Source: an uncultured virus (IMG/VR IMGVR_UViG_3300028887_000111) (taxonomy: Duplodnaviria > Heunggongvirae > Uroviricota > Caudoviricetes). Taken from it: a DNA stretch of 64,000 nt. The notes under the pieces are model-generated. The model was not told the origin of the DNA. It searched no databases and saw only the letters and a program-made list of their open reading frames with translations. The stretch spans positions 1-64,000 of IMG/VR virus record IMGVR_UViG_3300028887_000111; one strand, written 5' to 3'. The translations under genes and the position numbers were made by a program. Of this stretch, positions 39,607 through 60,083 are shown in pieces (within the stretch, counting starts at the first letter, position 1; every line of letters begins with the position of its first letter).

Positions 39607-42570
39607 TTAGTCTCCTTTAAGTTCTGCATAAGAATACCATTGTCTTGCTGAAAACTCCTTGAACCGATCCTTTGAATATGATTTACTTCCAACGATGAAT
39701 CCAACTATTCGTTGATATGTGTCATATACAGGTTCGCCACAAACTGGACATATATCAGTACCGACAAAACCGTGATGATGTTTGCAAGCATTGATTTTTG
39801 TATTAAAGGCAAAGTATATAACCCCCGAAGCAGCTATATGATTGAGCATATCCCATGCTACATCCGTATTAGGGAAATTGTTTTCGAGGTTGATGTGAGC
39901 GATCGCGCCACCTCCGCAAAGTTTATCAAGAATCGATGATAGGTGAAGTTTTTCAGAGATAGTGCATTTTGCTGTAAGCGGAATCCACTGATTTGAATAT
40001 ATAAAGGTGTCGGTCTTTGGATGATAAAGAGCATTATCTTTTTGACAAAGGATAACAGCGCAGCGTTCTGCGGGTACTGATTCCACGTTTATAGAATACT
40101 CTGTTGTGAAGTTATCCTTAACACTGTTAATAACATCAAAGACCTTTTTGGCAAACTCTATACCACTTTTCGTGTAAGAAATATAACCGAAGTTGTCTGT
40201 CTCAGTGTAACCCATTGCCTTAACAACTTCATAAAGACCTAAAATGCCCACGGTACAATATTGCTTGGCAAGCTCCATAGCTCCGTCTTGGTAATTTGGA
40301 AGTAGTCCCTTTTCAATGTTTCTCTGTATTATGTGACGTACACAATCTAAGGTTTTACAACAAAGTTCTACTCTATGCTTCAATTTTTTAAGATAAGATT
40401 CTTCGTCTTTGCCTACTTCATAAAAGATACGCATAAGATTAATAGTATTAACCTTTACAGAACCAATTGATAATGCTGTTCCACCTATAGAATTAATGAA
40501 AGCATCGAGTTTAGACGTATCTGAGAGTAAACGACAATTATGAGATATTACTCCATTGGGTAAGGTGAAGTATGGTTCATCTTCAGACTTCATCTCAAAA
40601 CAATACACATATTCATTATCGTAGTCAACAGGCTCAATAGAAGCAATTTTATAATACTCGCTATTATTAACAAATTTAAAGCCAGATGTTTTATGCTTTC
40701 TTTTGTTCATTGGGCTATACCAACGTATACAATACAGAGGATAATTTCTTTTAAAGTTTTCACCTCTAATAACAACCGCTTCATCTGTTCTGTCGCTAAT
40801 ATCAATGATACTATTCATGCCAAGAGAAGTAATCAGACACTCAATTTGCTGAACTAACTTTGCAGACGTTGTATAAATTCTGTTTGAATTGCCGCCATCC
40901 GTAGCGTAGAATCCATCTAAAATACCCTTGCGGAAGTCTCTATTTTGAAGTAGACAATTGAGATTAAGTTCTTTTTCATAACAATAATTGCCTAAAACCC
41001 ATTCTTTAATAAAACCGTATACTCCCCAACTTGCAATTTTTGTGGGATAAACATTGTTATAAGGAGTGCTCAATTTATACTCCGCATTGGGATCAAGGCT
41101 CTTTACAGCTCTTTCAACAGTACCAAGCGTTGACTGATACTTGCTTTGATTAAGGGAGAGATCAACGAATGGCTTATGATTTTCTTTCTTCTGATATGTA
41201 CTGCCGTCGCCTAAGTACATTCCTACTAAAAAACCTTGCTCATAGGTGAGATGTCTGTCTTGTTCTGGAACTGCATCAAGCACCCTGCAATTAACCATTA
41301 AATAGTCGTCTGTGGTTAGGTCAATTACTTTTCTATCTCCTTTTAAAGTGGGGAATATGTGATTGTCCGTGACATATAACTCTTTCTTATTTGCAGTCAC
41401 AACCTTAAACATTTTTCTCTTTGGTAGCCTAATCACCTTACCACTAACCCAACTTCCATTATGAAAAATGGTAAAGTTGCGTTTCTTTTCGTGGTACGGA
41501 GCATTATATAGTTCTTCAAACGTCATATAATTTACACCATCGGACGACTTGGTAAGACACATCTGTTCTCCTGAAAAGCAACAATTACTGAGTACCCCTA
41601 CGTTGTCGCTGATAAAGAAGTTGCTGTCGTTCCACTTAACATTATGGTCTGAACACCACCTCGCAAAACTCTCGTCAACAAATTTACCGTTCTTGTAAAG
41701 CAGAGAATATGTCAGTACGGGAAATGTGAACATATTTGCTTCTCTTATTTCGGACACAACCTGCATAAAGACCTTTTCAATCTCTATGATTTCCTCTACA
41801 TAATCAATTGCCATTGTACCATCTGGGAACTCAACTCCGCCAAAAAGTTCTTCAATATAATTACGATCAAAAATAGAAACATTTGTAAATGAACTCTGAT
41901 CTACTCTGAGAAATGGTTGATTAAGACGATAGATTAACTTTTGAAAGCTCTGTTTTAAATAGTAATCTTTATCTTTAATGTAGTAGCCCGTCTCGCAATC
42001 CTTCTTCCAAAAGTAGAAACTCCATACAAGGACATTTGGGAGTCCTACCGCACCTGAAGAACGATTGCACATGTATGAAACAAACTCTATTACATCATCA
42101 AGGAACGTAGTAAGATGTTTAGGGGCTTCTGAGTTATAATTATTTAAGAAGAACAATCCTTCTTTTGCTAAACGAGTTAAATCGTAGGCGTAACAATAGG
42201 GCTTATATGTAGCTGATGGAGCATCGTGGAGATAATATGCGCCTGAATATTCATCTTCAAGCCATTCTCTTGCGTCCGCAAGACCATACTTCTTGTTCAT
42301 TTCATAGAAGATTTTGTTAAAAGCAAAGAGTTTATCATGGCTCTTGCCTTTCTCTGCAAGCAAACTTGCTATGTCTTTGTGGCTTGCGTTAGCGTTGGCA
42401 TCTATTGTAACATCAGCCATATTTTTGTCAATAAAGCCTTCTATAAAATCAGAAAAATTCATTTGAGAGTTATGAAAACCGTTTAATATTTCAAATTCTT
42501 CGCCGTATTTGTCTACTACTTTATTAAATGCAGTAGTAAAATTTTTGCCAGTTTTGATATTTACGTCCAT
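39607..42570 (-). CDS. nrdD: Class III anaerobic ribonucleotide reductase containing an intein
   Basis: FTFPV, SNC/CRL finger loop, ESVPAE, C-terminal CxxH/CxxC and RIVGF glycyl-radical motif. Confidence 0.95.
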   Translation of the reverse strand: MDVNIKTGKNFTTAFNKVVDKYGEEFEILNGFHNSQMNFSDFIEGFIDKNMADVTIDANANASHKDIASLLAEKGKSHDKLFAFNKIFYEMNKKYGLADAREWLEDEYSGAYYLHDAPSATYKPYCYAYDLTRLAKEGLFFLNNYNSEAPKHLTTFLDDVIEFVSYMCNRSSGAVGLPNVLVWSFYFWKKDCETGYYIKDKDYYLKQSFQKLIYRLNQPFLRVDQSSFTNVSIFDRNYIEELFGGVEFPDGTMAIDYVEEIIEIEKVFMQVVSEIREANMFTFPVLTYSLLYKNGKFVDESFARWCSDHNVKWNDSNFFISDNVGVLSNCCFSGEQMCLTKSSDGVNYMTFEELYNAPYHEKKRNFTIFHNGSWVSGKVIRLPKRKMFKVVTANKKELYVTDNHIFPTLKGDRKVIDLTTDDYLMVNCRVLDAVPEQDRHLTYEQGFLVGMYLGDGSTYQKKENHKPFVDLSLNQSKYQSTLGTVERAVKSLDPNAEYKLSTPYNNVYPTKIASWGVYGFIKEWVLGNYCYEKELNLNCLLQNRDFRKGILDGFYATDGGNSNRIYTTSAKLVQQIECLITSLGMNSIIDISDRTDEAVVIRGENFKRNYPLYCIRWYSPMNKRKHKTSGFKFVNNSEYYKIASIEPVDYDNEYVYCFEMKSEDEPYFTLPNGVISHNCRLLSDTSKLDAFINSIGGTALSIGSVKVNTINLMRIFYEVGKDEESYLKKLKHRVELCCKTLDCVRHIIQRNIEKGLLPNYQDGAMELAKQYCTVGILGLYEVVKAMGYTETDNFGYISYTKSGIEFAKKVFDVINSVKDNFTTEYSINVESVPAERCAVILCQKDNALYHPKTDTFIYSNQWIPLTAKCTISEKLHLSSILDKLCGGGAIAHINLENNFPNTDVAWDMLNHIAASGVIYFAFNTKINACKHHHGFVGTDICPVCGEPVYDTYQRIVGFIVGSKSYSKDRFKEFSARQWYSYAELKGD
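40537..41580 (-). mobile_element. Intein with LAGLIDADG endonuclease (348 aa)
   Basis: Starts CFSGEQ, block B VTDNHIF, GMYLGDG and GFYATDG, ends SHN followed by Cys. Confidence 0.92.
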
Positions 42571-47162: not shown

Positions 47163-48368
47163 TTAGCACCCATTCACTACATTAATTATAGTAGGTGTTA
47201 GACACACCTCTATCCCATAGCTAAAAGCATCTGGAAATACCTTTCTAATTATCTGCAAACTGCCGTTTACGTCTGAATTGATTAGAGTATTATTTGCTTG
47301 AAACAACCCTCTTTTAACTCTCCGTCTTTTATTGTAATTTTCTTTACACGGTAGTTCTCCATCTAAAAAACTTGTTCCACTTGTATAACTTTCTTCAGTT
47401 TCAACAAACTCAATGCCTACATCTTCACATTTATATTTAAGCTGTTGTATCAACATTTTATAAGGAATAAAAACAAAGTTCTGCGAATTTACTTTATCCA
47501 TTCTAAGGTTCTGTTTCCACTCGTCGTTATGTCCTACAACTAAAGTATCTATCTGATGTTGTACACACCATTTGACTATGTAATGGCTTGCGTGGTGCAT
47601 ATAATTCTTGACTCTGTTGAACCGCTTGAAAGTTATTTGTTCAAGTTGTTTACTCCAAAACTGACCTTTGGGTAATTTAGATTGTAGTTCAGATCTGCGT
47701 TTATTATAGAATTGGTTTATGCTCTTTAATCCTCTACCGTTAATAATAAATGGCTGCTCACCAATATTATTTGAAGTTGTAGCAAGATTATTAACACCTA
47801 AATCAATTCCTACAATACGCTTGTTATCGGACATAGCATCAGGAACTTCAATCTGAGATACTATCTCCATGACGTATACACAACCCTTTGGGACAAATCT
47901 CACTTGAATTAACCTGCCGACACATCTGCATTTCCACCTAACGGATTGCAATTTGAGCACTCTAAATTTCAGTTCCCCATTCTCAAAATAGCAAGCGTTG
48001 TTTGGTATCATCCAATTGAATCTACCATCTTTCTTGAGATATTTTGGCATTTGAGGTCTGCCGAGAAATTTCTTTGGGTTCTTTTCATACTCTTTCAAAC
48101 CTTTAAAAAATGACTTCCAATTCTTATCAAGCAAACGCAGAACACAATTCGCAGGTTGGCTCATACAATCTTTATATTGCTGATGTGTTTTGAGATTGAT
48201 GTTCATTTCTTTGTATGAGACATATCGTTTGTTATTAATATATTCCTGCCTAATAATATAATTAGCATAATTATAAAGATTCTTCGCATTAAAGCACATT
48301 TCGTCAATGACACCCCACAACGAATGCGTCCTGCGGATAATCTGTTGTTCTACTCTGTTCGCAATCAT
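47163..48368 (-). mobile_element. tnpB: TnpB-family RNA-guided nuclease (IS200/IS605 group), no tnpA nearby
   Basis: KNLYN, GIDLGVNNL, QLKYK, EESYTS, DVNGSLQI. Confidence 0.9.
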
Positions 48369-48423
48369 ATATTACACCATCTCCTTTTATTTACCCCTAC
48401 GTAAAATAGCCAAAAACGGGCTG

Positions 48424-49170
48424 TTAATTTTCACCATCAATCCTCTTTTTAGCTATCTCAAAGTAGTTCTCATCAAGCTCTATGCCTATAAAATCTCTGT
48501 TGGTGTTCTTTGCTGCCACGCCTGTTGAACCGCTACCCATGCAATTGTCAAGCACTAAGTCTCCTTCGTCTGTATAGGTCTTAATGAGATATTCAAGCAG
48601 AGCAACAGGCTTTTGTGTGGGGTGGAACTTATCTTTATCATGGGTGAACTTCTGTACATCTCTCGGATAACGTGTGCCATGATTGACTGTCAACTGTTCC
48701 TTTGACCATTTCGTGTCATAATTGGTGCTGGCTCTACCTGATATTGCCGTATAAGGTTTGCCCTCTGTCATCTGAGGATAATACTTCATTGCGTGAGATT
48801 TGTCTTTGACATAGCAAGCTGCACTCTTGGAAAAGATTAATATATTCTCGTGTGCTTTCATAGGAGCAAAGTTGCAATTCAATCTGCCAGTAGCCATAGG
48901 TTTCTCCCATATCCATTCATACTTCAGCATATCAAGATTGCTTGCCCCTAATACCTTATCAAATGGCGTTTGAGCAAAGAGTGCTATACAACCATTGTCT
49001 TTTATGATGCGTTTGTACGCCCCCCATAGAGATTCAAGATTAATGGTGCTATCCCATTTATTCTTAGTAGTACCATAAGGAAGATCGCAAAGAATCAAGT
49101 CTACACTCTTATCTGGAATACCGCCCATTAATTCAAGGCAGTCGCCTTGCCATAATTCTATATTGCTCAT
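48424..49170 (-). CDS. N6-adenine/N4-cytosine DNA methyltransferase (beta class)
   Basis: DLPY, HPTQKP, DNCMGSGSTG. Confidence 0.93.
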   Translation of the reverse strand: MSNIELWQGDCLELMGGIPDKSVDLILCDLPYGTTKNKWDSTINLESLWGAYKRIIKDNGCIALFAQTPFDKVLGASNLDMLKYEWIWEKPMATGRLNCNFAPMKAHENILIFSKSAACYVKDKSHAMKYYPQMTEGKPYTAISGRASTNYDTKWSKEQLTVNHGTRYPRDVQKFTHDKDKFHPTQKPVALLEYLIKTYTDEGDLVLDNCMGSGSTGVAAKNTNRDFIGIELDENYFEIAKKRIDGEN

Positions 49171-50546: not shown

Positions 50547-50705
50547 CTACTTTTTGGCTATTCTACGTTGTAAAATTTTGGGTTCTCGCTGCCCACCTTG
50601 CATTGTAGTGAGTGAAGGAGAAATACCCCCCCCACTGTAACAACGCTTGATAACATCCATGCCTTTAATCGGCAGATTTACTATCACTTTTATCTCGTTC
50701 TTCAT
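50547..50705 (-). CDS. TRD-like mini-protein 9 (52 aa), G8 tract in frame
   Basis: AAGGAG RBS; MKNEIK...RCYSGGGISPSLTTMQGGQREPKI. Confidence 0.75.
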   Translation of the reverse strand: MKNEIKVIVNLPIKGMDVIKRCYSGGGISPSLTTMQGGQREPKILQRRIAKK

Positions 50706-50856
50706 GTTTGCTCCTTATAAGCATTTTAGGCTCAGTGTTGCCACCTCTGCCTATGCCATTCAATGTGGGAGATACCCCCCCCGTAGTGTATATTCTGCGC
50801 CGACACTCCGTCCACTGTGGAATTTTGAGTTCGGCTATTTGTTTTAATTCATTCAC
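50665..50856 (-). CDS. TRD-like mini-protein 8 (63 aa), G8 tract in frame
   Basis: AAGGAG RBS, GTG start; RIYTTGGVSPTLNGIGRGGNTEPK. Confidence 0.75.
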   Translation of the reverse strand: MNELKQIAELKIPQWTECRRRIYTTGGVSPTLNGIGRGGNTEPKMLIRSKHEERDKSDSKSAD

Positions 50857-51007
50857 TTTTTATCTCCTTAAAGGCGTAGTGATAACTACCTCCACTGATA
50901 TTTGAACAATGACACATACCTACACAACAGCCACTATATATTCTATGCTGCTGATGGTATTGAGTGCCATAATTCTTCTCTCCTACCCCCCCCACCAGTT
51001 TTGGCAA
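50849..51007 (-). CDS. TRD-like module 7, G8 tract in frame, start uncertain
   Basis: PKLVGGVGEKNYGTQYHQQHRIY...GGSYHY; TTG start without a clear RBS. Confidence 0.55.
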   Translation of the reverse strand: MPKLVGGVGEKNYGTQYHQQHRIYSGCCVGMCHCSNISGGSYHYAFKEIKSE

Positions 51008-51021
51008 GGAAGTGAAAGGGG

Positions 51022-51288
51022 TTACTGAAAAGAAAATTCAAGCTGTCTGTCTACATTGGAGAACTTCTCGTCATAACACTCATAGTCATTATCATACTGT
51101 GCTTTATAAAGGTGTTCTGCTAACAGTTCAATGCAGTTTGTTACGATGCTGTTGCCAGCCTGTCGGTAGAGCTGAGTATCACTCATACCTACCGCCTTGC
51201 ACTTTTCTACATCTTCATTAGTAAAACCCATCAGTCTCCAACATTCGGTAGGAGTTAATTTGCGGATAGCCCAATCTTCAACGTTCAT
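51022..51288 (-). CDS. C5 methyltransferase C-terminal subunit (motifs IX-X)
   Basis: IRKLTPTECWRLMGF, LYRQAGNSIV; AAAGGA RBS before ATG 51288. Confidence 0.85.
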   Translation of the reverse strand: MNVEDWAIRKLTPTECWRLMGFTNEDVEKCKAVGMSDTQLYRQAGNSIVTNCIELLAEHLYKAQYDNDYECYDEKFSNVDRQLEFSFQ

Positions 51289-51514
51289 ACTATCATTCCT
51301 TTCAATTCTGTATATATTGCAATTACCTGCGGTGAGAGTAGGGCAGGTTTGCCCCCCCCCTCTGAACTCTGCCACGACGCAGCTTTGAATTTGGATAGGA
51401 TAGGTCAGCCACTCCACCATTCTCACAAAGGATATATCCTTGCTTCGTAGCTTGTTTTACCCTTATGTAATCTTTACTTTCATCGGGAGATAAGAGATCG
51501 TGCACATCACTCAT
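51289..51514 (-). CDS. TRD-like module 6, G9 tract out of frame (G8 would fuse it to the motif IX-X subunit)
   Basis: KQATKQGY...DLSYPNSKLRRGRVQ / GGQTCPTLTA. Confidence 0.8.
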
Positions 51515-51680
51515 TTTTATCTTCCTTTCTGACTTTCTTTAGAAGCACCCCAGTTCTTGCTTTCTGTTGATTGCTAACTCCGTTGTCATATCTTGTTAAA
51601 ATACAACTTGCATACTGCATAGGGCAAGGTTTATTCACAGTCATGTCCACCCCCCCTATGGTTATGTATTTGTCTGGCAT
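51507..51680 (-). CDS. TRD-like mini-protein 5 (57 aa), G7 tract in frame
   Basis: MPDKYITIGGVD...ASCILTRYDNGVSNQQKARTGV. Confidence 0.7.
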   Translation of the reverse strand: MPDKYITIGGVDMTVNKPCPMQYASCILTRYDNGVSNQQKARTGVLLKKVRKEDKNE

Positions 51681-51827
51681 TTCTTAACCCTCTTTATCAA
51701 TATCTTCTTGGCATCTTTGTAATCTCTGGAAAGTATTGTCTTAGAAATACCCCCCCCCGCTTACGACAATGCCTTGCTCACTGTAATTGGTTGGCAATGC
51801 CACCGCCACTCTTATCTGATTTTTCAT
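51662..51827 (-). CDS. TRD-like mini-gene 4, G9 tract out of frame
   Basis: With G8 reads MKNQIRV...SGGGISKTILSRDYKDAKKILI. Confidence 0.7.
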
Positions 51828-51967
51828 CTTTACTTACCTTTCTTATTAGTATCTTACAGGGATCTTTGTGTTCTCTCGTGGATAGAGTACACATACCCCC
51901 CTACGGAATACAACCGCCCATTATGTTCATACATATTAGGCATTGTCATTAGCAGTTTTACGTTCAT
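51778..51967 (-). CDS. TRD-like mini-gene 3, G6 tract out of frame
   Basis: With G5 or G8 reads MNVKL...RLYSVGG(G)MCTLSTREHKDPCKILI. Confidence 0.7.
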
Positions 51968-52107
51968 TTTTTCACCAACACTTTCGGAACTCCTTTGTAG
52001 TCTGTTGATTTGAGTGACCACATTGCACCCCCCCCACTGGCTACTTCTTGATTTTGATGTTGCTTACCAGTAGAGGGAAGGACTCGTCCCACATATTTTA
52101 TTTCCAT
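51964..52107 (-). CDS. TRD-like mini-protein 2 (47 aa), G8 tract in frame
   Basis: GGAG RBS; MEIKYVG...SGGGAMWSLKSTDYKGVPKVLV. Confidence 0.75.
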   Translation of the reverse strand: MEIKYVGRVLPSTGKQHQNQEVASGGGAMWSLKSTDYKGVPKVLVKK

Positions 52108-52203
52108 TGAACTACTCCTGTTGCACCAAATGTGCCTTTAAATTCTGAATAGCTGTTTTAGCATACTGCTGTTTAAGTGTGCGACAATATCCGTTCTGGT
52201 CAT

Positions 52204-53169
52204 TCATCGGAACTGCCCCCCTATAGTGACATCGTTAGATGTATAGATAGGCTGATTGCAAATAATGCCGTAATTAGGGAAGTCATTGCGTGTCTCATAC
52301 AGCTCATTCCATAGTTCTTCTTCCTCTGAGAGTGTGCCGTTATTAGCCATCTCATCAAGTGCCTTACCAGCAGCATCAGATGTGAGAATATACTTCTCAT
52401 TCACATCAAAGTCAAGAACATGGAATAAACGTATGCCCGTATCAAATGCCTGTGGAAACTCAAACTTACCAGTGTCTACATCCTTGCGTATACTTACAGC
52501 AAATACGCGTTCCCGGTTCTGAGGTATGCCACAATCCTTTGCATTGACTATCTGCCAATAAGTGTTATAACCAATCTCACTGAGATAATCGCACCACTCA
52601 TTAAACTGTGGCTTAAATCTCTGTGATACAAGATTCTTTACATTTTCAAGAAGTAAGAACTTCGGCAGAGTGTCTGTCTCTTTAGCCTTTGCGAGTAAGC
52701 GTTCTACTTCATAAAGCAAACCGCTTCGTGTCTTACCACGTTCAATGCCCTGAATCTGACCAGCGATGCTGATGTCGGTGCATGGGAACGAGTATGTTAC
52801 AAAGTCTGCATAAGGCAATTCTTCTATCTTTGATATGTCTCCCATATTCTTAGAAAGAACTGATGCCAGATAATACTTCTTTAAGTCTGCACTGTTGCGT
52901 TTCTTCTGCCAGTCATAAGCCTTGTTCTTCTCAAAGACATAGCCAATGTTACGACTTTCAAGGTACTCCACCATTTCATCTACGGGCGGATAATCATAGT
53001 TCTCAATAAGTTCTGGTGTAAGTCCACAGTGAACGGCAGCGTAGCTCACGATTGCATCTTTGTCAATCTCTGATGTTGCTATTACCTCAGTGTCAAATAA
53101 ACCAGAGTTTTTAAATCCTCTGATCTGAGCACCTATGCCAGAAAATAATTCAATCATTGTCAACTTCAA
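52204..53169 (-). CDS. C5 cytosine methyltransferase N-terminal subunit (motifs I-VIII), ending just after a G6 tract
   Basis: FSGIG, SFPC, LENV, QNRERVF; lacks motifs IX-X. Confidence 0.92.
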   Translation of the reverse strand: MKLTMIELFSGIGAQIRGFKNSGLFDTEVIATSEIDKDAIVSYAAVHCGLTPELIENYDYPPVDEMVEYLESRNIGYVFEKNKAYDWQKKRNSADLKKYYLASVLSKNMGDISKIEELPYADFVTYSFPCTDISIAGQIQGIERGKTRSGLLYEVERLLAKAKETDTLPKFLLLENVKNLVSQRFKPQFNEWCDYLSEIGYNTYWQIVNAKDCGIPQNRERVFAVSIRKDVDTGKFEFPQAFDTGIRLFHVLDFDVNEKYILTSDAAGKALDEMANNGTLSEEEELWNELYETRNDFPNYGIICNQPIYTSNDVTIGGQFR

Positions 53170-53255
53170 TTAAATTCCTCCTTGTTTCTAATTTGTTACT
53201 CTGTCAGTCAATAAAAGTAAAGTTTTATTGGATAAATAGAGCCACTTTTCGGCTA

Positions 53256-54119
53256 TTATACGTTACCCAATCCCTTTAAAATATGAGCGATTACATCAAC
53301 TGTCCAACCATTACCTATGGCTGTGTATCTTGCTGTGTTTGAAACGCAGCTCGTATACTCATCTGGCAGCGTTTGTAATCTTTCATATTCAAGAGGTGTG
53401 AGTTTTCTTGCTCTGCCATTATCCATTACTTTCTTTTGAGTATTACCACCGCCACAAGTTGTAAGAGTATGGCACTTAAAAGCAGGATTAAAAATTCTTT
53501 TGTGAATATCGTGATTTTTAAAATCCATTATCGCACACACTTGTTTACTCATATCAATATTCGTCAACGGATAATTGTAGAAAAAATTTTCGTCAACATT
53601 CGTTTCCATAATATCTGCAAGAACCTTATTAGATTTCTCATACATCATATCTACAGGTATATTTGTCCAATAATAGCGAGGTCTACTTTGAGCAGAGAAA
53701 TCTGCACTATCTATGAAGATTGGCTCACAGCCTAAACATTCAGATATAACCTGTTTGCATTCATCCTTCATACTTGCCACATTTTCAAACAAGAAATATC
53801 TTGGCTTCATTTCTTCAAAAGCCCTTACAAACTCAAAAAATAATTTGCTTTTACCATCAAGATTCTGTCTTGTCTTACTCTGTACGATGCTCAAAGACTG
53901 ACACGGACTACCGCCAATAAGTAAATCAAAATTTGCGTACTCTCTAAAATCCGCTGTTGTAACATCTCCTTTGTGCTCAATCTGAGGATAATTTTTTTCG
54001 CTTACTTTTATAGCGTTTGGCTCAATTTCATATGCAACATATTTTTCTACTGGAATGCCCGCCCTTTCAAGTGCCACCATTCCACAACTTATGCCGTCAA
54101 AAAGACTTAATACTTTCAT
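53256..54119 (-). CDS. C5 cytosine methyltransferase (single chain)
   Basis: FDGI, GGSPCQ, FENV, QSRPR, RKLTPLEYERLQ, GNGW. Confidence 0.93.
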   Translation of the reverse strand: MKVLSLFDGISCGMVALERAGIPVEKYVAYEIEPNAIKVSEKNYPQIEHKGDVTTADFREYANFDLLIGGSPCQSLSIVQSKTRQNLDGKSKLFFEFVRAFEEMKPRYFLFENVASMKDECKQVISECLGCEPIFIDSADFSAQSRPRYYWTNIPVDMMYEKSNKVLADIMETNVDENFFYNYPLTNIDMSKQVCAIMDFKNHDIHKRIFNPAFKCHTLTTCGGGNTQKKVMDNGRARKLTPLEYERLQTLPDEYTSCVSNTARYTAIGNGWTVDVIAHILKGLGNV

Positions 54120-54206
54120 TTTTCTCTCCTTATCACTAATTTATTATTTTGCAATCACATAAAAGAACCGTTTTATTCAGTTTTGACCTACGTAGAATAG
54201 GCAAAT

Positions 54207-54944: not shown

Positions 54945-55007
54945 TACATCTTCCTTTCGCATAAAAGATTTATTTTATCCAGTTTTTATAGCCTGTTTTT
55001 GGCTATT

Positions 55008-55553
55008 TTACGTTAGTGATTTTTCATATTTGTGCAGCTCTCGCATCTCCAATTTGCTCGGAAGGAAGTCTCTGCAAAAATATGCCGATCCAAAGTGGTT
55101 GCCCTTAGTGTATGTAGTCATATTGCCATTAGTGTGATAATCTATTCTTGCATCAAAGCACAACATCTGAATCTCGTTTTGAAATATTTTAAACCGCTTC
55201 TTGCCCTGTATACTATTGCAAGGCAGAAGGATTGCAAAAGGTTTACCGAGTTCAAAAGCTCTCTGCAACACATCGTCCTTTTTACTAAAAGGCGGATTGC
55301 TTATCATTATGTCCCACTTCTCAGGTTCATAATTGAAGAAGTCTTGACCTTCAGCAAGAGAACTTCTAACTACGTCATACCCCCCCCGCTTGAATGTCTG
55401 GTAGAACGCCGACCATTCCTCGTCAAACGGACACCAAATCGTCTTATCTTTTGGGATAAACTCAAGCAGAGGATCAACCGCATAGTAGGGAGTGTATACT
55501 TCATCTCCTGCCGCCGTGCGGTCACAAGTTAAATACCCAACATTTAAAGGCAT
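55008..55553 (-). CDS. Short adenine-methyltransferase-like protein with an in-frame G8 tract
   Basis: DEVYTP, IWCPFD, SNPPFS. Confidence 0.8.
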   Translation of the reverse strand: MPLNVGYLTCDRTAAGDEVYTPYYAVDPLLEFIPKDKTIWCPFDEEWSAFYQTFKRGGYDVVRSSLAEGQDFFNYEPEKWDIMISNPPFSKKDDVLQRAFELGKPFAILLPCNSIQGKKRFKIFQNEIQMLCFDARIDYHTNGNMTTYTKGNHFGSAYFCRDFLPSKLEMRELHKYEKSLT

Positions 55554-56312: not shown

Positions 56313-57449
56313 TCAAACAACCTTGATGCCAGTAATTTCTTCAAACACACTTGCATCAAAATTAGGAATATCCTTGACTGCAACTCTTTCATCTTCTGTC
56401 ATATTATCCCACATAATACCACAAGCTGTTTTGAAATCAACCGATTTGAGATAACCGCCAGTTGTTTCGTGTTCAGGATGTGCTTCTTTTTCTTCCGCCG
56501 TCATATTCTCACTGTAAATCCACCAGTCGTTCTCATACTTCCAATCCATAGCTCTTACAGCTAAGTTGCTATTAAAAGCATTTCTGTCAATATCTAATGG
56601 CTTGTTGAAAGCGCATAACGGTTGCTCAATTGAATTAAAAAAGCCAGTAGAGAAATCACCGCTGTTCCAATCACCGCTGTTCCAATTGCCGCTGTTGCAA
56701 TTACCGCTGTTGTAATCACCGCTGTTGCGATTGCCGCTGTTCCAATTACCGCTGTTGTAATCACCGCTGTTGTAATCACCGCTGTTGCAATTACCGCTGT
56801 TGTAATCACCGCTGTTGCGATTACCGCTGTTGTAATCACCGCTGTTGTAATCACCGCTGTTGCAATTACCGCTGTTGCAATTACCGCTGTTGTAATCACC
56901 GCTGTTGCAATTACCGCTGTTGCAATTACCGCTGTTGTAATCACCGCTGTTGCGATTACCGCTGTTGCAATTACCGCTGTTGTAATCACCGCTGTTGTAA
57001 TCACCGCTGTTGCAATTACCGCTGTTGTAATCACCGCTGTTGCGATTACCGCTGTTGCAATTACCGCTGTTGTAATCACCGCTGTTGCGATTACCGCTGT
57101 TGCAATTACCGCTGTTGCGATTACCGCTGTTGCGATTGCCCGTACAGTCCTTTCCTGTATTGGCTAAATCAAGAACCTCGTGCCAAGTAAGCTCCCTTAA
57201 AATTACGATTTCATCTGTGACGGATTTATCGCCTTTAGTCTCAACATTACCGATAGCTTCGACTTCTGCAACCTTATTGTTGCTGTTAAAGCCGTAATAA
57301 TTGAAGCAATCTGAGACCTTCCGGCAGAAGTGAAATCCTGCACCACACATCTCAATATTGCCATCGTGCTTGAAAGTTTTGCCAACCTCGTACTGAAAAC
57401 CTCTGCAAGTCCAGTCAGGGTTGAACACTTTGTAGCCTTTAATACTCAC
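56313..57449 (-). CDS. Pentapeptide-repeat protein
   Basis: 32 (N/D)xNSG repeats between globular N- and C-terminal domains. Confidence 0.85.
   Translation of the reverse strand: MSIKGYKVFNPDWTCRGFQYEVGKTFKHDGNIEMCGAGFHFCRKVSDCFNYYGFNSNNKVAEVEAIGNVETKGDKSVTDEIVILRELTWHEVLDLANTGKDCTGNRNSGNRNSGNCNSGNRNSGDYNSGNCNSGNRNSGDYNSGNCNSGDYNSGDYNSGNCNSGNRNSGDYNSGNCNSGNCNSGDYNSGNCNSGNCNSGDYNSGDYNSGNRNSGDYNSGNCNSGDYNSGDYNSGNWNSGNRNSGDYNSGNCNSGNWNSGDWNSGDFSTGFFNSIEQPLCAFNKPLDIDRNAFNSNLAVRAMDWKYENDWWIYSENMTAEEKEAHPEHETTGGYLKSVDFKTACGIMWDNMTEDERVAVKDIPNFDASVFEEITGIKVV
56658..57137. repeat. 15-bp tandem repeat, about 32 units
   Basis: ACCGCTGTTG(CAATT/TAATC/CGATT) units. Confidence 0.95.
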
Positions 57450-57517: not shown

Positions 57518-58600
57518 TTAAAACAAAGCACAGCCTTGCCTCTTAAAGTCTGCTACTGCATTATCCCATGCCTCATTATCTAAGCAACAAAGTTCTTTCA
57601 GATGCTTCTTGCAGTAAATCTTGCTTGTTCCTCTGCCGAGAAGTTTCAGATTCATTGCAAGCACATCATTCTGTCTTACGTTCCTACCGCACACTTCGCA
57701 AGTCTTGTTGAAGTATTGCAAAGCCGTATCATAGTTGTCAAGTCCTTTGTGCTCCATAAACTCTGTCACAACTTCTTCTGTTGGTTCTGGTCTAAGTAAA
57801 CCACCATTCCAAGCTCCGTTTACATATTCGTCTATAGTGCAATTCAGCTTAGTCCAGCGATTCTCCTGCGCAAAGACTTTGCGCAGGATGCTGCGCCATC
57901 GGTCATACGCCATGCGATACCAATACTTATCTAATACCCAAGTGTACTTGGTGTAATACGGGCAAGCCACTGAACACCCAACTCTACTATATCCCTTACG
58001 GTATTTAGGATTTATTTCAATGCCGTTTTTAAGAATATAGAGCCATATGTCAAGCTCACTCCACTTTCTTATAGGCAAGCAACTAAACCAATCACGATCT
58101 CCCCACTTTGGATTGTGCGATATATCCTGTCGGTCTGCTCTCTGCGCTGATTCGTCATTTCTCACGCCCATAAAGAAAAGCATCTGTGGTTCACTATCAA
58201 AGTATTCTATGCTCTTACCTTCCTTGAATACTGTACAGCAACCACGGCTGAATCTTGTGGGAATGAAATGCTCTTTGAAGATGTATTTGTAGAACCCAAT
58301 GTCGGGATTGATAATTGTCCAGTCTTTATGAGCTTTTACCATTTTATAGGTATCGCCTGTATCAAGAGTAGTGTTATTGAAGTGAACACCCACATCAGGT
58401 AAAACACGAGTTACCAAATCAAGAGTTACCATGCTGTCTTTACCTGTAGATGTAAATACTACTTTCTTGTGATTCGGATAGTCCTGTATCGCCTTGTTGA
58501 TAACGCTCATTGAGTCTGCAATTCTGTCATCAAGTTCCCCACTGAGCCTTGCTATGGTCTGCTGCCAAGTCTCAAATTGTTGCGAAAGTTTGATTTTATT
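57518..58600 (-). CDS. PAPS-reductase-family (PP-loop) protein, body; its 5' part is on the inverted segment
   Basis: STGKDS, CCTVFK, GVRNDES..R, RVGC..CP; frame is open up to the inverted repeat. Confidence 0.88.
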   Translation of the reverse strand, partial: NKIKLSQQFETWQQTIARLSGELDDRIADSMSVINKAIQDYPNHKKVVFTSTGKDSMVTLDLVTRVLPDVGVHFNNTTLDTGDTYKMVKAHKDWTIINPDIGFYKYIFKEHFIPTRFSRGCCTVFKEGKSIEYFDSEPQMLFFMGVRNDESAQRADRQDISHNPKWGDRDWFSCLPIRKWSELDIWLYILKNGIEINPKYRKGYSRVGCSVACPYYTKYTWVLDKYWYRMAYDRWRSILRKVFAQENRWTKLNCTIDEYVNGAWNGGLLRPEPTEEVVTEFMEHKGLDNYDTALQYFNKTCEVCGRNVRQNDVLAMNLKLLGRGTSKIYCKKHLKELCCLDNEAWDNAVADFKRQGCALF

Positions 58601-58855
58601 GCCAATTTAGCAACGTAGAATAGGCATTTCCCAGTGAAAGGAGAATGATAATGCAACCCATCTTCAAAGAGATGATTCAAATGTGGAGCGATTTAGGTTA
58701 TCCTCTGCTGATAGAGGAAGGCAAGTATTGGCTTGAAAACCACTTCGTCTGCGGATTTACAGCCGATGGTGAACTTCACAAGCTGTATAAATACAAGGTG
58801 GCAGACGATTTAAGCATTGAGATAACGCCTTACAAGTCGAATAAAATCAAACTTT
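58585..58855. other. Invertible segment carrying the RBS and first 70 codons of the PAPS-reductase-family gene (OFF orientation)
   Basis: 16-bp inverted repeats AAAGTTTGATTTTATT (58585-58600) and AATAAAATCAAACTTT (58840-58855); inversion gives an in-frame fusion. Confidence 0.85.
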
Positions 58856-59162
58856 AATGTCTTGTCTTTACATCAGAAAAGTCAAACTTAGGTTTATTCT
58901 TTAATTTCTCGTTGCATTCATCAATGGCTTTGTGTAGATCGGACTTCCTACCCCATTCAATATACCCTGCAATATTTGTGATAAGATAGAATATATACAT
59001 TACTACCATAGGAATATTCATAGTGCCGAGAAAGTTTACTCCCAACCACGCTATGTTCCCTAATATCCATATCCACCAGCCAGAGCGTTTCTTATGGGCG
59101 ATAAGTACATTACCGCCCAAGCTGAATACGCTGCCGAGAATTGAAAATATTAAGACTATCAC
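58854..59162 (-). CDS. PnuC-like small membrane protein
   Basis: Three hydrophobic helices, GW..W...N and GY..W patterns. Confidence 0.6.
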   Translation of the reverse strand: MIVLIFSILGSVFSLGGNVLIAHKKRSGWWIWILGNIAWLGVNFLGTMNIPMVVMYIFYLITNIAGYIEWGRKSDLHKAIDECNEKLKNKPKFDFSDVKTRH

Positions 59163-60054: not shown

Positions 60055-60083
60055 ATTATAACACATAAATATTAGAATGTCAA
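60055..60083 (-). promoter_or_regulatory. Consensus sigma-A promoter at the head of the cassette region
   Basis: TTGACA-17 bp-TATAAT with extended -10 TG. Confidence 0.85.

What the first reader, a model, noticed from the sequence alone, without database searches (positions are those of the whole stretch)
58582..58858. Intragenic inversion switch, caught OFF, in the PAPS-reductase-family gene
Seen: a lone + strand 70-aa ORF (58645-58857, with AAAGGAG RBS) inside a minus-strand region is bounded by exact 16-bp inverted repeats. These are two of the cassette sites and the only pair whose spacers match in inverted orientation (GTTTGA/TCAAAC). Flipping the segment joins ...PYKSNKIKL to SQQFETWQQTIARLSGELDDRIADS-MSVINKA..., giving one ORF of about 425 aa and placing its RBS directly behind the upstream gene's stop. 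This is the most direct evidence in the window that the 18-bp sites recombine. Inference: it is an ON/OFF switch for an enzyme that may act in DNA modification (DndC is a member of this family); the function is not shown by the sequence.
Basis: partly seen in the sequence, partly recalled or inferred. Interest (0 to 1): 0.85.

Follow-up and report, generated by a model that had tools for sequence, protein, structure and literature searches.

The report
Invertible start of a phage enzyme gene
A 271-base piece carrying the start of a phage enzyme gene sits backwards between two short mirror-image repeats. The same flip recurs in many related gut phages, so it looks like a built-in on/off switch rather than an accident.

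Summary
Exact 16-bp inverted repeats (58585-58600 and 58840-58855) bound a segment that carries the ribosome-binding site, start codon and first 68 codons of a PAPS-reductase-family gene. The segment lies in the opposite orientation to the rest of the gene (57518-58606, minus strand). An in-silico flip gives one 423-425-codon frame. The closest homologue (P0001, 423 aa) has exactly that architecture, and 96 of the 120 listed homologues are 402-432 aa.

The new result is that the flip recurs. Eleven distinct loci have an inverted 5' part of this gene, in seven lineages whose repeat arms differ. Three of the eleven lie in bacterial genome assemblies, two of them isolates. Nearest collinear relatives were compared for four lineages and are 91-100% identical across the flipped segment. 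Every flip restores the frame. Two inverted genomes still show dN/dS of 0.05-0.11.

Most arm pairs fit an 18-bp site, ATAAAA-N6-TTTTAT, with matching spacers. In one related clade, a second inverton with near-identical arms breaks a C5 DNA methyltransferase gene.

My reading is a programmed site-specific inversion, probably by a tyrosine recombinase, caught in the OFF state.

Not shown: both orientations within one population, the recombinase, and the enzyme's function.

The parts
58585..58600 (.). Left inverted-repeat arm (AAAGTTTGATTTTATT). The 18-bp reading is 58582-58599, GCGAAA-GTTTGA-TTTTAT.
58840..58855 (.). Right inverted-repeat arm, the exact reverse complement of the left arm. The 18-bp reading is 58841-58858, ATAAAA-TCAAAC-TTTAAT. 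It overlaps the stop codon of the upstream gene. Its codons N-K-I-K-L end the 70-aa ORF.
58601..58839 (.). Invertible core, at present in the orientation that breaks the gene.
   Evidence: inverted relative to collinear relatives such as L003 and L053
58637..58643 (+). Ribosome-binding site AAAGGAG of the flipped 5' piece.
58651..58857 (+). 5' piece of the gene: 68 codons for the N-terminal domain plus a stop created at the junction. The ORF finder starts it at 58645.
   Evidence: no Pfam or PHROG family
58604..58626 (+). Conserved motif (…ACGTAGAATAGGCA) inside the invertible segment. Copies lie beside other 18-bp sites of the window in either orientation. Role unknown.
   Evidence: families D3, D8; pairs I1, I2, I18
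57518..58606 (-). 3' piece of the gene: an open frame of 362 codons with the PAPS_reduct domain (first ATG at 58510, 330 aa). It has no RBS or start of its own at the break.
58854..59162 (-). Upstream gene, a PnuC-like fragment of 102 aa, whose stop overlaps the right arm.
60055..60083 (-). Perfect sigma-70-type promoter match (TTGACA-17-TATAAT) upstream of the operon that would read into the reductase gene.
   Evidence: a consensus match only

Best explanation
This is a programmed DNA inversion switch (an inverton of the 'partial intergenic' type) in a phage genome. A 271-bp segment holds the ribosome-binding site, start codon and N-terminal-domain codons of a PAPS-reductase-family gene of about 423 aa. 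The segment is bounded by two copies of a short recombination site in inverted orientation. One copy lies just behind the stop of the upstream gene. The other lies inside the coding sequence, in a low-confidence linker between the N-terminal domain and the catalytic domain. Recombination between the two copies flips the segment. In one orientation the gene is whole (ON). In the other, which is the window's state, the 5' piece points away and the catalytic part has no start (OFF). The sites look like tyrosine-recombinase core sites: an A-rich half (ATAAAA), a 6-bp spacer that is identical within a pair, and a T-rich half (TTTTAT). I infer a conservative site-specific recombinase, most likely one of the Xer-like tyrosine recombinases that these phages encode. 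What is shown: the repeats, the restored frame, full-length homologues, opposite orientations between near-identical genomes in several lineages, and purifying selection on inverted copies. What is inferred: reversibility within a population, the enzyme that flips the segment, and the benefit. The suggested benefit is bet-hedging over a costly or restriction-exposed DNA or nucleotide modification function.
For: (1) Anatomy: exact 16-bp arms, and the flip gives one frame.
(2) Homologues: 96 of the 120 listed are 402-432 aa. P0001 has the fused architecture.
(3) Recurrence:
- Viral contigs: 3 of 51 loci inverted, 39 collinear, 9 without an N-terminal hit.
- Metagenome contigs: 7 of 80 inverted, 63 collinear, 10 without a hit. 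Two of the ten inverted loci repeat contigs already counted.
- Genome assemblies: 3 inverted, 7 collinear and 1 cut among the 11 close homologues. Two of the inverted ones are isolates, Eubacterium segne BX4 and Lactonifactor sp. BIOML-A5.
- Total: 11 distinct inverted loci in seven lineages with different arms. Their spacers are GTTTGA, AGTTGA, ACTTGA, CCAATC, CGAAAC, AACTGG and CAGAGG.
(4) Where compared, the nearest collinear relatives are almost identical. L070 against L069 is 100% over the 267-bp segment and over 411 bp of flank. L065 against L060 is 98.8% in the segment and 100% in the flank. L002 against L053 is 100% over 271 bp.
(5) Flipping restores a 426-441-codon frame in all 11.
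(6) L001 and L002 are both inverted and have dS about 0.19. Their dN/dS is 0.108 for the 5' piece and 0.053 for the 3' piece, so the gene is not decaying.
(7) Inverted forms occur only in clades that carry the repeat. Among 75 collinear loci, 22 have a repeat of at least 12 bp in the expected places. Only 2 of 223 control comparisons reach that length.
(8) Locus specificity: in an all-against-all comparison of 157 loci (770,944 bases; 1.4 Mb of aligned pairs), every inverted match lies at this 5' end or at one methyltransferase segment.
(9) That second inverton (L012 against L017) has 17-bp arms that differ at 2 positions from the reductase arms of the same clade over the 15 nt they can be aligned. 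One of its arms is a perfect ATAAAA-N6-TTTTAT, and both lie inside coding sequence.
(10) The core AATAAAATCAA is read in different frames and at different protein positions in clades 1, 2 and 3. This points to constraint on the DNA rather than on the protein.
(11) The 18-bp pattern occurs 12 times in the window against 1.0 expected.
(12) The complete relative G001 (100% identical at the locus) encodes one Xer-like tyrosine recombinase and no serine recombinase.
Against: - No sample was shown to hold both orientations. Only Logan contigs were available. The likely source run X1 gave one contig in the window's orientation, X2 showed the same orientation, and X3 showed the collinear junctions.
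- The recombinase is not identified. Orthologues of the G001 recombinase are found in clades 1 and 3 and in one clade-2 genome. They are missing from most clade-2 genomes and present in two genomes without the repeat.
- Tyrosine recombinases are in 15 of the 16 records that are at least 90% complete, so their presence discriminates nothing.
- No recombinase gene lies within 2.5 kb of the gene in L175 or L178.
- The clade-4-type arms and the L178 arms fit the 18-bp pattern only weakly, with 3-6 mismatches.
- Conservation of the arms within clade 1 is only marginally above that of the slowly evolving segment around them.
- The window's own record G000 is 73% complete and holds no recombinase.
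Confidence: 0.75

Rival explanations
1. The inversions are real but not programmed. Short inverted repeats that happen to flank the gene's 5' end are occasionally recombined by general means, such as replication template switching or phage homologous recombination. Loss of the gene is then tolerated or selected, so broken forms reach consensus level in some populations.
For: No recombinase could be tied to the sites. Arms are only 11-18 bp and differ between lineages. The 11-bp clade-4 repeat is near the length that chance can give: control comparisons reach up to 13 bp. No single sample showed both orientations.
Against: Seven different arm pairs lie at the same place in one gene family. No other inversion was found in the 157 loci compared, apart from one with near-identical arms. 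Most arm pairs share one 18-bp architecture with matching spacers. The same DNA core is kept in different reading frames. No inverted copy carries a further disabling change. dN/dS is 0.05-0.11 between two inverted genomes. Within clade 1 the segment of inverted L002 is identical to that of collinear L053 but differs from that of inverted L001.
Confidence: 0.17
2. The orientation in the window is an assembly error produced by the inverted repeat.
For: The window comes from a metagenome assembly. The likely source run shows just one contig.
Against: The arms (16 bp) are shorter than the word sizes that I recall for common assemblers, so they should not make the assembly graph ambiguous. This rests on my knowledge, not on a call. 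The same orientation is seen in a second viral record (L002, 98% protein identity). It is also seen in a 41.9-kb contig of another study about 94% identical in DNA (X2). Analogous inversions occur in many independent assemblies, including isolate genomes.
Confidence: 0.03
3. The 70-aa ORF and the 330-aa ORF are two separate, divergently arranged genes, and the present arrangement is the working one.
For: Both pieces stay under purifying selection in two inverted genomes. The 5' piece keeps its own RBS and ends at a stop created at the junction.
Against: Of the 120 listed homologues, 96 are single proteins of 402-432 aa. Collinear loci outnumber inverted ones: 39 to 3, 63 to 7 and 7 to 3. The 3' piece has no ribosome-binding motif before its first ATG (my reading). 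The AlphaFold model of P0001 is one confident chain (pLDDT 89.5, pTM 0.80) with a single weak linker at residues 61-70.
Confidence: 0.05

Closest known systems
Gene-altering programmed inversions, also called 'partial intergenic' and intragenic invertons of bacteria (Milman et al. 2023, PMC9881135, passages read; Chanin et al., bioRxiv 10.1101/2023.03.11.532203, passages read)
   Same: Short inverted repeats bound a segment that overlaps a coding sequence. Flipping changes or truncates the product. Both papers describe recombinase-mediated, preprogrammed inversions and note that the responsible invertase is often unknown.
   Different: Here the element sits in phage and prophage genomes. It acts as a plain ON/OFF switch by removing the RBS, start and N-terminal domain, rather than swapping alternative domains. 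The target is a PAPS-reductase-family enzyme. 'PAPS' and 'phosphoadenosine' occur 0 times in the main text of PMC9881135; its supplements were not read.
Phage tail-fibre inversion systems (Mu G segment with Gin, P1 C segment with Cin); recalled, and mentioned as phage tail gene inversions in PMC9881135
   Same: A phage-borne invertible segment flanked by inverted repeats that generates two phage types.
   Different: Those systems use serine invertases and exchange tail-fibre C-termini to change host range. Here no serine recombinase was found in G000 or in 4 of the 5 relatives searched. The target is an enzyme gene, and one state is simply off.
Tyrosine-recombinase core sites (Cre/loxP, XerCD/dif, FimB/FimE switch); recalled
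   Same: Two inverted binding halves flank a 6-bp asymmetric spacer. The spacer is identical in the two partners, and the sites stand in inverted orientation, which gives inversion.
   Different: The halves are only 6 bp long, and one half of each partner is degenerate. No recombinase has been shown to bind them. The same pattern also stands just upstream of the RBS of many genes of the window, so it may have a second, regulatory role.
Phase-variable DNA methyltransferases and hsdS 'epigenetic invertons' of bacteria (PMC7672463, search listing and abstract only)
   Same: Inversion toggles a DNA-modification function and creates mixed populations. The second inverton in clade-3 relatives breaks a C5 methyltransferase gene.
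   Different: Those are cellular restriction-modification systems that switch specificity. Here the genes are carried by phages and are switched on or off.

Membership tests
Programmed DNA inversion (inverton) | Inverted repeats bound the segment | tested here: met
   Exact 16-bp arms in the window. Arms of 11-20 bp in every other inverted locus.
Programmed DNA inversion (inverton) | Both orientations exist in otherwise near-identical DNA | tested here: met
   L070/L069 100%, L002/L053 100%, L065/L060 98.8%, L098 and L102 against L099 91-95%.
Programmed DNA inversion (inverton) | Both orientations coexist in one clonal population | not testable with these tools
   Only Logan contigs were served. 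X1 and X2 show the inverted form and X3 the collinear junctions, never both in one run. Contigs drop rare variants.
Programmed DNA inversion (inverton) | A cognate site-specific recombinase | tested here: inconclusive
   Tyrosine recombinases are present in all five relatives searched and in 15 of the 16 records that are at least 90% complete. No orthologue tracks the repeat and none is adjacent.
Tyrosine-recombinase-type core site | Two inverted half-sites around a 6-8 bp spacer that is identical in both partners | tested here: met
   Both arms fit ATAAAA-N6-TTTTAT with at most 3 mismatches for clades 1, 2 and 3, L173, L036, L178 and the methyltransferase inverton. Each of these pairs except L178 has one arm at 0-1 mismatch. 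Random places reach 1 mismatch or fewer in 28 of 5000 draws and 3 or fewer in 305 of 5000. Spacers are reverse-complementary within pairs. Clade 4 and L175 fit weakly, with 3-6 mismatches.
Serine invertase system (Hin/Gin/Cin) | A resolvase-family invertase encoded by the element | tested here: not met
   PF00239 is absent from G000 and from G001-G004, and present only in G005.
Shufflon or domain-swapping inversion | Alternative coding segments are brought into frame by inversion | tested here: not met
   In the present orientation the frame upstream of the break is closed by a stop at 58607-58609 and gains no start. There is one segment and one pair of matching spacers.
PAPS_reduct (Pfam PF01507) superfamily | Domain match above the curated cut-off, and the fold | tested here: met
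   E 4.3e-26, 92.4 bits against a cut-off of 22.5. Foldseek's best matches are CysH and APS reductases with TM-score 0.65-0.71 on the target. phrog_424 E 1e-32.
Assimilatory PAPS/APS reductase (CysH) proper | Equivalog-level match | tested here: not met
   NCBIfam cysH and PAPS_reductase models score 39-60 bits against cut-offs of 154-254. The protein has an extra N-terminal domain and about 150 extra C-terminal residues.
DndC (phosphorothioation) | Specific similarity to DndC and presence of dnd partner genes | not tested
No DndC model or sequence was compared. Neighbours in the window are DNA methyltransferases and a radical-SAM protein.

The most novel reading that the evidence does not exclude
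Large phages of gut and rumen Clostridia carry their own site-specific inversion system. Its short sites (ATAAAA-N6-TTTTAT) have been planted repeatedly inside different DNA-modification-type genes: the PAPS-reductase-family enzyme in at least seven lineages and a C5 methyltransferase in one. One phage stock would then contain virions with different modification gene sets, a phage-borne counterpart of bacterial phasevarions. That would hedge against hosts whose defences either require or attack a given modification.
Probability: 0.4. Interest if true: 0.85.

Novelty: new variant of a known kind. Interest (0 to 1): 0.72.

Why it matters
Programmed inversions are well known in bacteria. In phages the known cases are essentially limited to tail-fibre host-range switches. 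An ON/OFF inverton is a new use of the mechanism when it sits on an enzyme gene in a phage's modification module, has arisen with different arms in many lineages, and has a sister inverton in a methyltransferase gene. It would mean that phage populations are heterogeneous by design in how they treat their DNA or nucleotide pool. It also has a practical side. Gene callers split such genes into a short orphan ORF and a 'truncated' enzyme, which mis-annotates an abundant 'cysH-like auxiliary metabolic gene' of gut and rumen viromes. Two cultured isolates carry the element in the OFF state, so the switch is directly testable.

Tried and rejected
- BLAST of the locus DNA and of the 70-aa ORF against the annotated phage collection found nothing.
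- The 70-aa piece has no Pfam or PHROG family.
- Read-level orientation counts could not be made, because all 24 runs offered were kept as contigs. The single contig in X1 is no evidence that the other orientation is absent.
- In X19, contigs join both arms to other sequences (table 7). I could not tell whether these are further recombination partners or other phages that share the site.
- I tried to tie a recombinase to the repeat by co-occurrence across 49 viral records, using the orthologue of the G001 recombinase and PF00589. The result was imperfect or uninformative.
- I looked for a recombinase next to the gene in two isolate prophages and found none within 2.5 kb.
- A sigma-70 scan found no promoter inside the invertible segment beyond a 9-of-12 match on the minus strand at 58605-58576. 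I draw nothing from it.
- I checked whether the window's own C5 methyltransferase (52204-53169) has the repeat seen in clade-3 relatives. It does not (my reading).
- Sequence and fold searches for a more specific enzyme function gave only the general PAPS/APS-reductase, CysD, FAD-synthase and TtuA fold.
- My duplicate filter for the tree wrongly merged five short collinear loci (L090, L096, L108, L113, L125) with L078. They were left out of the 76 rows. This does not affect the inverted rows.
Full report
**What is in the window**

The window is phage DNA. A block of + strand genes runs from 1 to 36.5 kb; I did not annotate it. A minus-strand module from 36.5 to 64 kb holds DNA polymerase III alpha, anaerobic ribonucleotide reductase, dUTPase, thymidylate-related genes, five DNA methyltransferase ORFs, a radical-SAM protein and a TnpB-like gene.

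At the finding, an exact 16-nt inverted repeat has arms at 58585-58600 and 58840-58855, with 239 nt between them. Between the arms, on the + strand, lie an AAAGGAG motif (58637-58643) and an ORF that ends at 58857.

On the minus strand, a PAPS_reduct-domain ORF (57518-58510, 330 aa; E 4.3e-26) has a frame that stays open upstream to 58606. That point is inside the left arm's flank.

Flipping 58585-58855 in a script joins the two pieces in frame, giving 425 codons from the first ATG. Homologues begin at the second ATG (58651), which is also the start better spaced from the ribosome-binding motif.

**Is the fused form the normal one?**

Yes. A search with the unaltered 362-codon 3' frame found 882 relatives. 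Of the 120 listed, 96 are 402-432 aa.

The closest, P0001 (423 aa, 95% identical), matches the 70-aa ORF over its first 68 residues (65 of 68 identical, E 9e-46). It continues straight into the reductase part.

An AlphaFold model of P0001, built with 39 homologues, is confident (pLDDT 89.5, pTM 0.80). It shows a small helix-plus-sheet N-terminal domain (residues 1-60) and a weak linker at residues 61-70 (block pLDDT 64). After the linker comes the catalytic domain. The internal repeat arm of the window's clade lies in that linker.

The fold matches PAPS/APS reductases, CysD, the PAPS domain of FAD synthase, and TtuA. NCBIfam's CysH models are far below their cut-offs. The family is therefore clear and the reaction is not.

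**The flip recurs**

I fetched DNA around relatives and asked on which strand the N-terminal piece lies.

| Collection | Loci | Inverted | Collinear | No N-terminal hit or cut |
|---|---|---|---|---|
| Viral contigs | 51 | 3 | 39 | 9 |
| Metagenome contigs | 80 | 7 | 63 | 10 |
| Genome assemblies (close homologues) | 11 | 3 | 7 | 1 |

Two of the metagenome loci (L052, L128) are the same contigs as L001 and L036. Two of the three inverted genome-assembly loci are isolates, Eubacterium segne BX4 and Lactonifactor sp. BIOML-A5. This leaves 11 distinct inverted loci.

The nearest collinear relative of an inverted locus is nearly the same DNA:
- L070 against L069: 100% over the 267-bp segment and 100% over 411 bp of flank.
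- L065 against L060: 98.8% in the segment and 100% in the flank.
- L002 against L053: 100% over 271 bp.
- L098 and L102 against L099: 91-95%.

On a protein tree of 76 rows, the 8 inverted rows need at least 6 changes of state. Five further collinear rows were lost to a flaw in my duplicate filter.

The arms differ between lineages, giving seven different arm pairs. In L036 the inverted part is internal, at about residues 24-85.

In every one of the 11 loci, flipping between the arms restores a frame of 426-441 codons with no other defect.

**Not decay, not chance, not everywhere**

L001 is identical to the window at the locus. L002 comes from another sample. Both are inverted and differ at dS of about 0.19.
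- Their 5' piece has dN/dS 0.108 (6.5 synonymous and 3.5 non-synonymous changes).
- Their 3' piece has dN/dS 0.053 (37 synonymous and 9 non-synonymous changes).

A gene dead since their common ancestor would not look like this.

Among 75 distinct collinear loci, a repeat of at least 12 bp links the 250 nt upstream with the region 120-330 nt into the gene in 22 loci. These fall in three clades; a fourth clade has 11 bp. The same upstream region compared with other parts of the gene reaches 12 bp in 2 of 223 comparisons. Inverted forms occur only in repeat-bearing clades.

As a control for how common inversions are, I compared 157 fetched loci all against all. These included 26 loci around the polymerase gene and totalled 770,944 bases, with 1.4 Mb of aligned pairs. 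Every inverted match of at least 60 bp lay at this gene's 5' end, with one exception.

**A second inverton with the same arms**

The exception is a 303-bp segment about 1.7 kb downstream in clade-3 relatives. L017 has an intact C5 cytosine methyltransferase frame there. In L012 the segment inside that gene is inverted at 100% identity and breaks the frame.

Its 17-bp arms differ at two positions from the reductase arms of the same clade, over the 15 nt they can be aligned. One arm is a perfect ATAAAA-N6-TTTTAT. Both arms lie in coding sequence, so they cannot be explained as intergenic regulatory motifs.

**The site**

Every pair except L178 has one arm at 0-1 mismatch and the partner at 2-3. 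Spacers are reverse-complementary within each pair. Random places reach 1 mismatch or fewer in 28 of 5000 draws. Clade 4 and L175 fit only weakly.

In the window the pattern occurs 12 times with at most one mismatch, against 1.0 expected (0 of 100 shuffles reach 12). Eleven of the 12 lie in the minus-strand module, mostly just upstream of a ribosome-binding site. Their spacers all differ, except for the pair at the finding.

The core AATAAAATCAA of clades 1-3 is read as N-K-I-K in clade 1 and as I-K-S in clades 2 and 3. In clade 2 it sits about 27 codons further into the protein. This is what selection on the DNA site would give.

Among clade-1 relatives, similarity upstream of the gene ends exactly at the upstream arm. 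The site therefore also marks a mosaic boundary.

**Who flips it?**

This is not settled.
- The window's record (72.7 kb, 73% complete) has neither a tyrosine nor a serine recombinase.
- The complete 104.7-kb relative G001 has one Xer-like tyrosine recombinase. By my arithmetic from the contig ranges it lies about 2.4 kb beyond the window's first base.
- Orthologues occur in clades 1 and 3 and in one clade-2 genome. They do not track the repeat.
- Tyrosine recombinases are almost universal in these phages.
- A serine recombinase was found in only 1 of the 5 relatives searched.

**Reads**

Only assembled contigs of public runs were available.
- The likely source run (X1) and a run of another study (X2, about 94% identical) hold the window's orientation in single long contigs.
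- X3 holds both junctions of the collinear form.
- X19 joins the arms to other sequences.
- No run was shown to hold both orientations, and contigs cannot show their absence.

**Verdict**

The element is best described as a phage-borne ON/OFF inverton of the 'partial intergenic' class known from bacteria (PMC9881135 and bioRxiv 10.1101/2023.03.11.532203, passages read). It is caught OFF and very probably works by conservative site-specific recombination.

Three searches of the held paper library found no report of such a switch on a PAPS-reductase-family gene or of ON/OFF invertons on phage enzyme genes; I judged from their listings alone. PMC9881135 does not mention PAPS in its main text. Subscription journals and supplements were not covered.

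The relatives sit in Clostridia genomes and in gut and rumen metagenomes. The window's own host is unknown.

Noticed in passing
L012:5820-6122 against L017 (also L013, L014): Second inverton in clade-3 relatives. A 303-bp segment inside a C5 cytosine DNA methyltransferase gene is inverted at 100% identity in L012, which breaks the frame. Its 17-bp arms belong to the same site family as the reductase arms.
   Followed up: yes
window 38633, 49186, 49585, 50516, 53211, 54159, 54961, 55812, 57462, 58841, 59603 (and 30746): The 18-bp pattern ATAAAA-N6-TTTTAT occurs 12 times against 1.0 expected. Most copies lie directly upstream of the ribosome-binding sites of minus-strand genes. All spacers differ. 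They could be recombination sites, operators, or both.
   Followed up: partly
window 48399-48427, 50555-50577, about 53250-53264, 54190-54203, 54985-55013, 58604-58626: A second conserved motif (TGSCTATTCTACGT, or its complement) lies 10-25 nt from several of the 18-bp sites, in either orientation. Some copies form the 3' half of a small hairpin. Role unknown.
   Followed up: no
window 50547-53169 (minus strand): The C5 methyltransferase 52204-53169 lacks its C-terminal motifs. These sit in a separate ORF (51022-51426) about 780 nt downstream. Further small ORFs (50547-51007) repeat a glycine-rich short motif. It looks like a fragmented or multi-domain methyltransferase region and deserves its own look.
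   Followed up: no
window 58585 and 58840-58855, run X19: In run X19, contigs join each repeat arm to sequences that are neither the window's nor the collinear partner. One of them carries another ATAAAA-N6-TTTTAT site immediately beside the arm.
   Followed up: no
L001, L002, L003, L053: Mosaicism around the switch. The invertible segment of L002 is identical to that of collinear L053 and close to that of L003 (dS 0.05). Its 3' part is closer to L001 (dS 0.20 against 0.50 to L003).
   Followed up: partly
window 58854-59162 (minus strand): The upstream gene is only a 102-aa piece matching the last third of PnuC-like nicotinamide mononucleotide transporters. Collinear clade-1 relatives have a different upstream gene, and similarity ends exactly at the repeat arm.
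   Followed up: partly
window 47163-48368 (minus strand): A TnpB-like gene (OrfB_IS605 plus the Cas12f1-like TNB domain) lies inside the phage's methyltransferase cluster.
   Followed up: no
window 39607-42570 (minus strand): The anaerobic ribonucleotide reductase gene carries an intein with a LAGLIDADG-like domain.
   Followed up: no
window 56313-57449 (minus strand): A DUF7666 protein has a long run of 15-nt tandem repeats (56564-57223) that encode pentapeptide repeats.
   Followed up: no
L172 (Hominimerdicola aceti isolate), L176 and L029: Collinear loci that carry a repeat in the right places but for which no inverted form was seen. L172 has 13 bp with the clade-2 core. L176 and L029 share an 11-bp repeat, CCGAAATTTTA.
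   Followed up: no
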